Assembly: GCA_964360375.1 (NCBI GenBank)
Contig: CAYHWG010000001.1
Coordinates: 1 to 38,201 of the forward strand
Reading direction: 5' to 3'
Source: an uncultured Gammaproteobacteria bacterium
Lineage (GTDB): Bacteria; Patescibacteriota; Patescibacteriia; UBA9934; GWF2-40-263
Length of the DNA stretch: 38,201 nt
Positions 15,934-16,689 of this stretch are shown here, piece by piece. Below the pieces are notes generated by a model. The model did not search any database, was not told the origin of the DNA, and saw nothing but the letters and a program-made list of their open reading frames with translations. Every line of letters starts with the position of its first letter. Position 1 is the first letter of the stretch. The translations under genes were made by a program, and so were the position numbers.

Positions 15934-16689
15934 GAGAGTGCGACAGGACTCGTGCGATATTCATCGTGTCCAGTCGTTTGCACTCTCCCTTTGCCACGTC
16001 GCTCGCGAGCGACGTGGCTTGGCGGATGATGGCACCCATGCTTCTTTCGAAGCGTGGTGATGTTTGTCCGCCACCCTTGTGAGTGCGAGTAGTCGTCTGC
16101 ATTTTAATGCGATGGAACCAGTGCACTCACCCCTTCGGTAACAGGATTTGATTCACCTTGAATCCTGTTGCCCTCTTTTTCCGGAAGTCGAGAAGGTCTC
16201 GAATTTCGGATTTGAGAGTGCGAGGTGCTGCCTGTACTTTACGTTGGTGCAACTGCACTCTCCCTTTGAGAGTGCGAGGCGCTGCCTGTATTTTACGTTG
16301 GTGCAATTGCACTCTCCAACTTTGGCGGACGAGTCAAGCATTGCCGATTTTCGGTGAGGCGAAATGTGTCCGCCACCTTTGTGAGTGCGAGAAACATTCT
16401 GCTTAATGAAGTGATACTGGTGCTGCACTCACCCAACTTGGCAACAGAATTCGATTCACTTCGATTTCTGTTGCCCTCTTTTTCCGGAAGTCGAGAAGGT
16501 CTCGAATTTCGGATTTGAGAGTGCGACACGATGAATGCGATTTCCATCGCGTATCGGCACGTGTGCTCTCCCTTTGAGGGTTCGAAGCGGCAACTGCGAA
16601 ATTTTCGCGTGAAGTTTTATGAACCATCCTCCTTGGCGGACGAAAGAAGATTTGCGAGAAGGTCTCGCGTCGGAAGTATGTCCGCCACC
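15934..16689 (+). ncRNA. Array of at least 14 related hairpins in a ~280-300-nt super-repeat (2.7 copies); candidate guide/bridge-like RNA array
   Basis: Classes are A (GAGAGTGCGA..TGCACTCTCC), B (TTGGCGGA..TGTCCGCCACC), C (GTGAGTGCGAG..GCACTCACCC), D and E. There are compensatory changes between classes and copies, a 59-nt identical block 16165-16223 = 16468-16526, and unrelated interiors. Confidence 0.6.

What the first reader, a model, noticed from the sequence alone, without database searches (positions are those of the whole stretch)
15934..16689. Non-CRISPR array of covarying hairpins with conserved basal stems and hypervariable interiors, co-transcribed with an IS110-like gene
The array lies on the plus strand, downstream of a TTGACA-17-TAAAAA promoter, and abuts the RBS of the 486-aa gene. 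A ~280-300-nt super-unit (order A, P-or-A, B, C, D, E) occurs 2.7 times. Class A is GAGAGTGCGA-[about 29-35 nt]-TGCACTCTCC (15934-15988, 16214-16263, 16268-16317, 16517-16571, degenerate 16576-16632). Class B is TTGGCGGA-[about 37-38 nt]-TGTCCGCCACC (16019-16075, 16322-16377, 16633-16689). Class C is GTGAGTGCGAG-[..]-GCACTCACCC (16079-16130, 16381-16432). Class D has stems AACAGGATT/AATCCTGTT versus CAACAGAA/TTCTGTTG around a conserved GATTCAC loop (16140-16169, 16441-16474). Class E is CCGGAAgTCGAGaaggtCTCGAaTTTCGG. A perfect 26-nt palindrome (15993-16018) replaces the second A hairpin in unit 1. Stems A and C differ by one fully compensated pair (A-T to T-A), and D1/D2 by a G-C to A-T swap. 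A 59-nt block (16165-16223 = 16468-16526) is identical. The interiors are unrelated between copies, except A2/A3, which differ by 3 substitutions. Most interiors still form a small apical stem (GCGAT-attc-ATCG, GCGAT-ttcc-ATCGC, GCATT-tt-AATGC, CATGCTTC-tttc-GAAGCGTG, GCGAG-aaggt-CTCGC). Because the variable segments are bracketed by inverted rather than direct repeats, this resembles guide-carrying loops more than CRISPR spacers. Comparable cases are IS110 bridge RNA target/donor loops and TIGR-type tandem guide arrays. I know of no described case of a multi-unit array of such hairpins next to an IS110-like gene.
Basis: partly seen in the sequence, partly recalled or inferred. Interest (0 to 1): 0.9.

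Follow-up and report, generated by a model that had tools for sequence, protein, structure and literature searches.

The report
Stem-loop TIGR guide-RNA array with TasR
This is a TIGR-Tas system from a candidate-phyla-radiation bacterium: a row of hairpin guide RNAs, each with two 9-nt guide segments, beside the gene for its RNA-guided DNA-binding protein TasR; the class was first described in 2025, so it is a clean new example, not a new kind.

Summary
All share one architecture: 8-bp stem, YGA, 9 nt, UG, small hairpin, YG(A/U), 9 nt, UG, stem. A covariance model finds these eleven and nothing else in the 38 kb.

The 486-aa gene is not an IS110 transposase. It passes NCBIfam's TIGR_Tas_endo cutoff. 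Its predicted fold matches TIGR-TasR (PDB 9MTY) best. It is 46% identical to a Staskawiczbacteria protein that has the features published for CsTasR. Q and V occupy the first two RuvC catalytic positions, so the nuclease is probably dead.

This is therefore a stem-loop TIGR array with a CPR-clade TasR (Faure 2025; Xu 2026). It most likely acts as an RNA-guided DNA binder and repressor.

Homologous loci in Patescibacteria carry the same hairpins, always on the tas strand. Classes D and E are not guides. They form a conserved two-hairpin module, a terminator-like hairpin followed by a long duplex, that divides the array into sub-arrays. The TIGR papers I read do not mention it. No natural target was found.

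Verdict: a new member of a known kind, of modest interest.

The parts
15865..15893 (+). Putative promoter: TTGACA (15865-15870), 17 nt, TAAAAA (15888-15893)
   Evidence: Read from the sequence. Hexamers and 17-nt spacing are conserved in L001, L002 and L006 while the spacer sequence differs; L002 and L006 have TACAAA as the second hexamer. Function is inferred.
15894..15933 (+). Conserved leader upstream of the first unit
   Evidence: GGGTCGCGTTTTCA..AATTGTCGATTTGCTT is conserved in the window, L001 and L002.
15934..15987 (+). tigRNA unit A1: GAGAGTG CGA CAGGACTCG TG [CGATATTCATCG] TGT CCAGTCGTT TG CACTCTC
   Evidence: (59.1 bits).
15993..16018 (+). Perfect 26-nt palindrome P. A hairpin without guide segments.
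   Evidence: I5; -21.7 kcal/mol. L006 has a longer hairpin with related arms (CACGTCGCTCGC..GCGAGCGACGTG) in a comparable position.
16020..16073 (+). tigRNA unit B1: TGGCGGA TGA TGGCACCCA TG [..] CGT GGTGATGTT TG TCCGCCA
   Evidence: (37.3 bits).
16079..16130 (+). tigRNA unit C1: GTGAGTG CGA GTAGTCGTC TG [..] CGA TGGAACCAG TG CACTCAC
   Evidence: (57.2 bits).
16137..16180 (+). D1: 15-bp hairpin (16137-16172) followed by CTCTTTTT. Has the form of an intrinsic terminator.
   Evidence: (top terminator-like site).
16173..16218 (+). E1 extended hairpin. The core is 16181-16209. The outer arms CUCUU and GAGAG overlap the D1 U-tract and the 5' stem arm of A2.
16214..16262 (+). tigRNA unit A2: spacers GGTGCTGCC / TGGTGCAAC
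   Evidence: (53.1 bits).
16268..16316 (+). tigRNA unit A3: spacers GGCGCTGCC / TGGTGCAAT. A tandem duplicate of A2 with 3 substitutions.
   Evidence: (37.2 bits).
16323..16375 (+). tigRNA unit B2: spacers GTCAAGCAT / GGCGAAATG
   Evidence: (56.8 bits).
16381..16432 (+). tigRNA unit C2: spacers GAAACATTC / TACTGGTGC
   Evidence: (35.2 bits).
16440..16483 (+). D2: terminator-like hairpin (16440-16475) followed by CTCTTTTT
   Evidence: I3; 100.6 bits for the D-E module.
16476..16521 (+). E2 extended hairpin. The core is 16484-16512. It overlaps the 5' stem arm of A4.
16517..16570 (+). tigRNA unit A4: spacers CACGATGAA / ATCGGCACG
   Evidence: (56.7 bits).
16576..16631 (+). tigRNA unit A5: bulged basal stem, spacers AGCGGCAAC / GAAGTTTTA
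   Evidence: (39.6 bits).
16634..16687 (+). tigRNA unit B3: spacers AAGAAGATT / CGGAAGTA (8 nt). The last unit, abutting the tasR 5' UTR.
   Evidence: 44.4 bits. Related units occupy the same position in L002 and L006, also with an 8-nt spacer B.
16714..16719 (+). Ribosome-binding site AAGGAG
   Evidence: Read from the sequence. It lies 5 nt before the ATG at 16725.
16722..18182 (+). tasR: TIGR-associated protein with a RuvC-like N-terminal domain lacking acidic residues at two catalytic positions, plus a Nop domain. 486 aa from 16722; more likely 485 aa from 16725.
18197..18249 (+). tigRNA unit A6, downstream of tasR: spacers CGCATGTTT / GAGGTCGGC
   Evidence: (57.3 bits).
18256..18287 (+). 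Terminator-like hairpin GCACGAG..CTCGTGT followed by T7, ending the locus
   Evidence: (-10.6 kcal/mol) and the sequence. Function is inferred.

Best explanation
This is a chromosomal stem-loop TIGR-Tas locus in a CPR (Patescibacteria) bacterium, probably related to Uhrbacteria.

**Inferred working model.** A conserved promoter drives a precursor RNA containing ten hairpin units. The tasR mRNA follows, and then one more unit. Each unit is a tigRNA built in this order: 8-bp basal stem; box C (CGA or UGA); 9-nt spacer A; box D' (UG); a 3-6 bp hairpin; box C' (CGA, CGU or UGA); 9-nt spacer B (8 nt in B3); box D (UG); the closing arm of the stem. Units are cut apart in the short linkers, which carry CUU. 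A TasR dimer binds one tigRNA. Spacer A pairs with one DNA strand and spacer B with the other strand of an adjacent half-site. One strand of the roughly 18-bp target therefore reads spacer A followed by the reverse complement of spacer B.

**Likely activity.** The first two RuvC catalytic positions are Q and V. The complex therefore most likely binds DNA without cutting it and blocks transcription, as shown experimentally for the homologous CsTasR.

**Other hairpins.** D and E are not guides. They form a terminator-like hairpin plus a long duplex that separates sub-arrays.

**Shown here:** unit architecture, covariation, linkage to tasR, protein family and fold, and the loss of two catalytic residues.

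**Inferred:** transcription, processing, DNA binding and repression, and the role of D-E.
For: **Protein.**
- NCBIfam TIGR_Tas_endo (equivalog): E 1.2e-31, 110.4 bits, above the cutoff of 100.
- AlphaFold2 model: pLDDT 92.4.
- Best PDB fold match is 9MTY TIGR-TasR (E 6.8e-9), ahead of the IS621/ISCro4 recombinases and TasH.
- It is 46% identical over its full length to the 547-aa Staskawiczbacteria ORF in L032. That ORF has R8 and V126, exactly as published for CsTasR. The equivalent residues here are Q8 and V102 in 485-aa numbering (Xu 2026).
- The first catalytic column is R/Q/T/V in all 54 homologues, never D or E.

**RNA.**
- All 11 units fit the box C / N9 / box D' / hairpin / box C' / N9 / box D scheme.
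- 65 of 68 units across 7 loci have 9+9-nt spacers.
- Stems and the box C-box D pair covary.
- CTT occurs in the linker of 29 of 68 units, against a 12% background.

**Linkage.**
- The model finds only the 11 tas-flanking units in the window; the next best hit has E 0.85.
- 68 of 68 hits and 84 of 84 hits in loci of TasR homologues lie on the tas strand.
- The locus is syntenic, rplJ-rplL-array-tasR, in four related genomes.

**Published description matched.**
- The literature describes CPR TasR with a dead RuvC, an extended hairpin between the spacers, units both up- and downstream of tas, and a CUU motif.
- It also reports repressor activity.
- L060 is the Buchananbacteria contig that Faure 2025 names as an inactivated TasR. 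Its protein is 41% identical to this one.
Against: - There are no expression or processing data for this locus.
- No target was found. Composite 18-mers match the window no better than shuffled controls. Four viral-collection scans gave chance-level hits in unrelated contexts.
- The D hairpins look like terminators and lie between the promoter and tasR. Simple read-through co-transcription is therefore not assured.
- Invariant acidic residues remain in the N-terminal domain (D98, D109, D146). Residual nuclease activity cannot be excluded from sequence alone.
- Repression is extrapolated from a homologue that is 46% identical.
Confidence: 0.9

Rival explanations
1. It is an IS110-family mobile element. 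The upstream hairpins would be bridge-RNA-like guides that direct recombination of the element.
For: There is a weak Pfam Transposase_20 hit (23.5 bits, residues 261-283). IS621 and ISCro4 recombinases are the second-best structural matches. TasR and IS110 are known relatives (Faure 2025).
Against: - IS110 NCBIfam models score 22.3 and 16.3 bits against cutoffs of 180 and 140.
- The first RuvC Asp is Q, and is never acidic in 54 homologues.
- Placing the IS110 catalytic Ser by eye, without an alignment to an IS110 sequence, the stretch reads QGGKF here and mostly DGKF in homologues, with Ser in at most 1 of 54 at either position.
- The locus occupies the same chromosomal slot after rplL in genomes whose TasR is 76-86% identical. 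That indicates vertical inheritance, not mobility.
- The hairpins have the dual 9-nt box C/D layout, not a two-loop bridge RNA.
Confidence: 0.02
2. It is an active nuclease-type TIGR-TasR defence system that cleaves invading DNA rather than repressing it.
For: Dual-repeat TaTasR and ParTasR are nucleases. The spacers differ between related genomes, as expected for an arms race. Invariant acidic residues remain in the N-terminal domain.
Against: Q8 and V102 occupy the positions where CsTasR has R8 and V126. CsTasR showed no cleavage in vitro. D11A alone inactivates TaTasR. No member of the clade has an acidic residue at the first position.
Confidence: 0.07
3. It is a dispersed REP/BIME-like structural repeat family, or a set of terminator/attenuator hairpins, that merely happens to lie next to the gene.
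For: The elements are palindromic and sit between genes. D has the form of a terminator.
Against: - The filter-off covariance scan finds the 11 units only beside tasR in the 38 kb.
- In 80 and more loci of TasR homologues, every hit lies on the tas strand and flanks the gene.
- The internal box C/D motifs and the exact 9+9 spacing are conserved. A purely structural repeat would not need them.
Confidence: 0.01

Closest known systems
Stem-loop TIGR-Tas of the CPR TasR clade (CsTasR, Candidatus Staskawiczbacteria; Xu et al. 2026, bioRxiv 10.64898/2026.09.09.750476)
   Same: - TasR with an expanded RuvC-like domain lacking the first two catalytic acids (R8/V126 there, Q8/V102 here); 46% identity.
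- tigRNA with a basal stem, two 9-nt pairing segments, and a 3-6 bp hairpin between the spacers.
- Units both up- and downstream of tas.
- CUU in the linkers.
- Host in the Patescibacteria.
   Different: - Shorter protein (485 versus 547 aa), with a smaller RuvC insertion and a smaller CTD insertion.
- Three alternating stem classes arranged in a ~303-nt super-unit.
- Sub-arrays separated by a D-E two-hairpin module, which that paper does not mention.
- Nothing has been tested experimentally here.
Dual-repeat TIGR-TasR (TaTasR, PDB 9MTY; Faure et al. 2025, PMC12045711)
   Same: Best structural match and the only sequence match in the PDB. Same box C - spacer A - box D - loop - box C - spacer B - box D logic, with the two spacers addressing opposite DNA strands.
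   Different: TaTasR uses conserved edge and loop direct repeats and a fixed 36-nt tigRNA with CCA/UG boxes. It has an active RuvC (D11). Here palindromic stems replace the edge repeats, the boxes are CGA/UG, and the RuvC is probably dead.
IS110/IS621 bridge-RNA recombinases (PDB 8WT6, 8WT9)
   Same: Shared RuvC-like plus Nop/Tnp-like fold. Guide segments are presented in RNA loops.
   Different: Here there is no DEDD first Asp, apparently no catalytic Ser, no mobility, and many single-purpose hairpins instead of one bispecific bridge RNA. IS110 family models score far below their cutoffs.
Archaeal/eukaryotic box C/D sRNPs (Nop5-fibrillarin-L7Ae)
   Same: Nop-domain dimer on an RNA with C/D and C'/D' motifs bracketing two guides. 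This analogy is drawn in Faure 2025.
   Different: The boxes are not the RUGAUGA/CUGA k-turn motifs. No fibrillarin or L7Ae was identified beside tasR: four of the ten neighbouring ORFs scanned had no Pfam match. In the characterised TIGR-Tas systems the target is DNA, not RNA methylation.
CRISPR arrays
   Same: A tandem array of units with constant and variable parts, next to an effector gene, processed into guides.
   Different: The variable parts are bracketed by inverted rather than direct repeats. There are two 9-nt guides per unit. No adaptation genes are known, and Tas systems need no PAM (Faure 2025).

Membership tests
TIGR-Tas (stem-loop type) | Tas protein with a Nop domain (coiled-coil plus C-terminal RNA-binding domain) | tested here: met
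   NCBIfam TIGR_Tas_endo scores 110.4 bits, above the cutoff of 100. The AF2 model matches 9MTY TasR best, and also TasH structures.
TIGR-Tas (stem-loop type) | Units with two 8-12-nt spacers in the order box C, spacer A, box D', loop, box C', spacer B, box D | tested here: met
   11 of 11 window units fit. 65 of 68 units across loci are 9+9 nt. Box C is CGA or TGA in 54 of 68. Box D' is TG in 61 of 68 and box D is TG in 58 of 68.
TIGR-Tas (stem-loop type) | Variable but palindromic stems in place of edge repeats, supported by covariation | tested here: met
   97.7-97.8% of cells are paired. All 12 model pairs show compensatory changes. 0 of 500 shuffles reach this.
TIGR-Tas (stem-loop type) | Array flanks tas, upstream and/or downstream | tested here: met
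   10 units upstream and 1 downstream. 68 of 68 and 84 of 84 hits in homologous loci lie on the tas strand and flank the gene.
TIGR-Tas (stem-loop type) | CUU motif at the stem base or in the linker | tested here: met
   By my reading of the flanks, 9 of the 10 upstream units have CTT within 8 nt after the stem (B3 and A6 do not). Across loci the count is 29 of 68, against a 12% background.
TIGR-Tas (stem-loop type) | Units processed into discrete tigRNAs bound by Tas, and RNA-guided DNA binding | not testable with these tools
   Needs small-RNA sequencing, RNP pull-down, and EMSA or reporter assays.
CPR-clade catalytically inactive TasR (CsTasR-like) | Non-acidic residues at the first two RuvC catalytic positions | tested here: met
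   Q8 and V102 align with R8 and V126 of the 547-aa Staskawiczbacteria ORF. The first column is never D or E in 54 homologues.
CPR-clade catalytically inactive TasR (CsTasR-like) | Secondary hairpin between the two spacers | tested here: met
   An inner stem of 3-6 bp is present in all units, with covariation.
IS110 family transposase / bridge recombinase | Score above the family model cutoff, and a DEDD RuvC active site | tested here: not met
   22.3 bits against a cutoff of 180, and 16.3 bits against 140. The first Asp is replaced by Q.
IS110 family transposase / bridge recombinase | Catalytic serine in the Tnp domain | tested here: inconclusive
   I placed the position by eye, without aligning to an IS110 sequence. 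The stretch reads MQGGKF here and mostly DGKF in homologues; Ser appears in at most 1 of 54 at either position.
IS110 family transposase / bridge recombinase | Mobile element: variable genomic position, several copies | tested here: not met
   The rplJ-rplL-array-tasR synteny is the same in L001, L002/L003 and L006.
CRISPR-Cas | Direct repeats separated by single spacers, with cas genes | tested here: not met
   The repeats around each variable part are inverted, and there are two 9-nt segments per unit. The neighbours scanned are PP2C, L10, L7/L12, a mechanosensitive-channel domain protein, a GT2 and four ORFs without a Pfam match.
REP/BIME dispersed palindromes | Dispersed through the genome, independent of any one gene | tested here: not met
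   No copy lies outside the tasR flanks in the 38 kb, with filters off. This is limited to the window.

The most novel reading that the evidence does not exclude
The D-E module may be an undescribed biogenesis or regulatory element of CPR TIGR loci. It consists of a GC-closed hairpin with a pyrimidine/U tract, abutting a 13-23-bp duplex whose 3' arm overlaps the 5' stem arm of the next tigRNA.

It could be an internal terminator or attenuator that sets the ratio of tigRNA to tasR mRNA. It could be a long-duplex (RNase III-type) cleavage site that releases the first unit of each sub-array. It could be both.

It recurs on the tas strand in loci whose TasR is only 35-40% identical to this one, and its arms covary with the stem class of the following unit.

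Related point: the A2/A3 tandem duplicate and the super-unit suggest that these arrays grow by duplication followed by drift in the spacers, rather than by spacer acquisition.
Probability: 0.35. Interest if true: 0.5.

Novelty: new member of a known kind. Interest (0 to 1): 0.3.

Why it matters
As an instance of TIGR-Tas it adds little. Thousands of stem-loop arrays have been catalogued, and a 46%-identical relative has been solved and shown to repress transcription.

Its value is as a clean, chromosomally anchored example. It sits in the same slot after rplL in several related Patescibacteria, so orthologous guide units can be compared between species. Three questions that the field lists as open become approachable:
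1. **How arrays gain or change guides.** There is a fresh tandem duplicate differing at 3 positions, and a segmentally duplicated super-unit whose stems are identical but whose spacers have diverged.
2. **How stem-loop tigRNAs are matured.** The D-E module supplies extended duplexes, which dual-repeat arrays were reported to lack.
3. **What the natural targets are.** This needs the complete genome.

Tried and rejected
1. **Rfam.** The whole window at gathering thresholds, and 15700-18400 at E up to 1, gave no family.
2. **Self-targets in the window.** I searched composite 18-mers in both possible geometries. The A+rc(B) geometry was deduced from the published 8-nt 3' overhang. The best matches were 13-14 of 18, the same as shuffled controls.
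3. **Antisense matches to the tasR coding sequence.** A1 (spacer B, box D and stem) matches 18114-18126 at 13/13. A2 matches 17760-17774 at 14/15. The first has p of about 0.01 by shuffling, but both are half-sites only. Nothing comparable occurs in L001, L002 or L006. I treat them as chance.
4. **Viral-collection scans.** Four composite targets gave 3, 1, 2 and 13 hits. The 13 fall into about 7 unrelated high-GC contexts, with no common gene.
5. **PDB sequence search with the N-terminal 162 aa alone.** Only noise.
6. **IS110 and REP readings.** Rejected; see the rival explanations.
7. **A promoter between D and the next unit.** I looked by eye and found none that was convincing.
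Full report
**1. The observation.**

The region 15934-16689 holds the hairpins as described.
- The repeat finder recovers the A/C 5' arms 8 times.
- It also recovers the 302-303-nt super-unit period, the perfect 13+13 palindrome at 15993-16018, and the A2/A3 copies at 94% identity.
- One further copy lies downstream of the gene, at 18195-18252.
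- The 59-nt identical block and the three A2/A3 differences (16226, 16237, 16253) were checked directly.

**2. Anatomy of the units.**

Read in register, every class A, B and C hairpin has the same hidden layout. In order: an 8-bp stem whose last pair is the C of 'CGA' with the G of 'UG'; (C/U)GA; exactly 9 nt; UG; a 3-6-bp hairpin; (C/U)G(A/U); 9 nt (8 in B3); UG; the closing arm of the stem.

| Test | Result |
|---|---|
| Strict pattern, + strand | 9 hits |
| Strict pattern, - strand and rest of the 38 kb | 0 hits |
| 200 shuffles | mean 0.04 hits |
| Relaxed scan | adds B3 |
| Covariance model R1 built from 11 units, filters off | the 11 units (E up to 7.5e-7); next best E 0.85 |
| Stem pairing within the window | 97.7% of cells; 9 of 13 pairs with double changes; 0 of 500 shuffles |

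The box C-box D pair itself covaries (C-G, U·G, U-A). The + strand folds markedly better than its complement. Each unit folds on its own into an outer stem plus an inner hairpin.

**3. The gene.**

The gene is a TasR, not an IS110 transposase.
- Pfam gives only a short Transposase_20 hit.
- NCBIfam gives TIGR_Tas_endo (equivalog) at 110.4 bits, above the cutoff of 100. The IS110 models score 22 and 16 bits, against cutoffs of 180 and 140.
- The only PDB sequence relative is 9MTY, TaTasR.
- An AlphaFold2 model built on 54 homologues (pLDDT 92.4) matches 9MTY best, then the IS621/ISCro4 bridge recombinases, then TasH.
- All 80 loci recovered from the genome collection are Patescibacteria/CPR MAGs, by their titles or by their TasR type. 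Several carry titles from automated naming, such as 'Gammaproteobacteria'.
- One of them, L060, is the Buchananbacteria contig that Faure et al. name as an inactivated TasR.
- L032, from Candidatus Staskawiczbacteria, encodes a 547-aa protein with R8 and V126. These are the features published for CsTasR.
- The window protein is 46% identical to that protein. It has Q8 and V102 at the equivalent positions.
- The first catalytic column is R, Q, T or V in all 54 homologues.

**4. Identity.**

These features match stem-loop TIGR arrays as described in the literature (Faure 2025, section 9). The fit is closest to the CPR TasR clade of Xu et al. 2026. That description includes:
- an expanded, dead RuvC domain;
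- a secondary hairpin between the spacers;
- units on both sides of tas;
- a CUU motif at the stem base;
- 9 nt of each spacer paired to opposite DNA strands;
- no cleavage in vitro, but guide-dependent and reversible transcriptional repression.

By homology, the mechanism proposed here is RNA-guided DNA binding and repression. Only the sequence-level features are shown here. Expression, processing and binding are inferred.

**5. Linkage and evolution.**

Model R1 finds 68 units in seven loci and 84 in the 80 further loci (in about 29 of them). Every hit is on the tas strand and flanks the gene. Across the 68 units, 97.8% of cells pair and all 12 pairs show compensatory changes.

The locus is syntenic (rplJ-rplL-array-tasR) in L001 (Uhrbacteria RIFOXYB2_FULL_45_11), L002/L003 and L006. 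The promoter hexamers and their 17-nt spacing are conserved in all four loci, with TACAAA in place of TAAAAA in L002 and L006. The leader is conserved in the window, L001 and L002. This argues for vertical inheritance and against mobility.

Spacers have largely diverged between the window and its 85-86% relatives. The best match is 12 of 18, whereas L001 and L002 share four units at 14-17 of 18. Paralogous units within the window (B1/B2, C1/C2) have identical stems but spacers that agree in only 5-7 of 18 positions by my count, close to random expectation. A2 and A3 are a fresh duplicate: two of their three differences lie in spacers and one in the loop. Constant parts are more alike within a genome than between genomes. 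This suggests homogenisation by recombination.

**6. D, E and P.**

These carry no box/spacer layout. D is the top terminator-like site in the region. E is a spacer-less hairpin.

A model of the D-E module finds it on the tas strand in the window (twice), L029, L028, L004, L036, L072, L082, L103, L007 and L006. In L004 and L007 one copy lies directly after the tas stop codon.

Folding shows a common design:
- A GC-closed hairpin directly abuts a long duplex.
- The 5' arm of that duplex is the pyrimidine/U tract (CCCUCUUUU).
- Its 3' arm (AAAAGAGGG) overlaps the 5' stem arm of the next tigRNA.
- The arms change together with that unit's stem class (GAGAG versus GAGGG).

The text of neither TIGR paper I read mentions such an element. 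Xu 2026 contains none of the six terms searched (terminator, leader, subarray, sub-array, duplication, RNase III). Faure 2025 mentions terminators only at array ends and, for dual-repeat arrays, notes the absence of extended duplexes. The module's role is an open inference: terminator or attenuator, processing site, or structural switch.

P has a longer counterpart with related arms in L006.

**7. Targets.**

No target was identified.
- The geometry A+rc(B) follows from the published 8-nt 3' overhang.
- No composite target in the window exceeds the controls.
- Four viral scans gave chance-level, unrelated hits.
- The antisense half-site matches to the tasR coding sequence are not replicated in orthologues.

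**8. Verdict.**

The system is a stem-loop TIGR-TasR locus of the CPR clade: a new member of a known kind. The residual novelty lies in the D-E punctuation module and in what the syntenic orthologues reveal about array evolution.

Noticed in passing
window 16133-16218 and 16436-16521; L004 3717-3797 and 5487-5564; L007 4481-4562; L036 4700-4774, 4925-5010, 5165-5240, 5397-5471: A conserved two-hairpin D-E module separates the sub-arrays. It is a GC-closed, terminator-like hairpin abutting a 13-23-bp duplex. The 3' arm of the duplex overlaps the 5' stem arm of the next tigRNA and covaries with that unit's stem class. It is present in loci whose TasR is only 35-40% identical. The TIGR papers I read do not mention it.
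   Followed up: partly
window 16214-16316: A2 and A3 are a tandem duplicate. They differ at 3 positions: one in spacer A, one in the loop, one in spacer B, and none in the stems or boxes. This is a possible snapshot of guide diversification by duplication and point mutation.
   Followed up: partly
window 16634-16687; L002 1570-1623; L006 ~1417-1468: The last unit before tasR (B3) is kept in three related genomes. Spacer A is similar (AAGAAGATT, AAGAAGGTC, AAGAAGATC). Spacer B is unusually short, 8 nt, in all three. This suggests a conserved target or a role in the tasR 5' UTR.
   Followed up: partly
window 16693-16721: GGCUCU can pair with AGAGUC to form a UUCG-loop hairpin. Alternatively GGCUCUUU can pair with AAGGAGUC, which would mask the ribosome-binding site of tasR. 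L001 and L002 have a different small hairpin (GCCC..GGGC) at the same place.
   Followed up: no
window 15969-15981 versus 18114-18126; 16244-16258 versus 17760-17774: There are 13/13 and 14/15 antisense matches between two units (spacer B, box D and stem arm) and the tasR coding sequence. The first has p of about 0.01 by shuffling. Both are half-sites only and are absent in orthologous loci, so they are probably chance.
   Followed up: yes
window 15993-16018; L006 ~1056-1101: The perfect 26-nt palindrome has a longer counterpart with related arms in L006 (CACGTCGCTCGC-loop-GCGAGCGACGTG). It may therefore be a conserved spacer-less hairpin that has collapsed onto itself.
   Followed up: no
window 14577-18182: In this lineage tasR and its array follow directly after rplJ-rplL. 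In most bacteria rpoB-rpoC come next (general knowledge). Here the downstream genes are convergent ORFs with no Pfam match (18351-18758 and 18762-21008, - strand).
   Followed up: partly
window 15750-15820; L002 ~500-570: Between the rplL terminator and the array promoter lies a conserved segment, TATCCTGAGCGAGTTCGACGAGTCGAAGGATCTCATCC, followed by a second terminator-like hairpin (AAAATCGCTGTAAAAGGCGATTTT). The window and L002 share both.
   Followed up: no
L007 1911-2651: In one related locus (TasR 53% identical) an RNase III gene lies upstream of the array. It is the last called gene before tasR, about 350 bp away. This may be coincidence, but it bears on the processing question.
   Followed up: no
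L028, L067, L068, L076, L091, L102: Several MAGs that carry CPR-type TasR loci have titles such as 'uncultured Gammaproteobacteria' or 'Bdellovibrionales'. These are probably taxonomic mislabels from automated naming.
   Followed up: no
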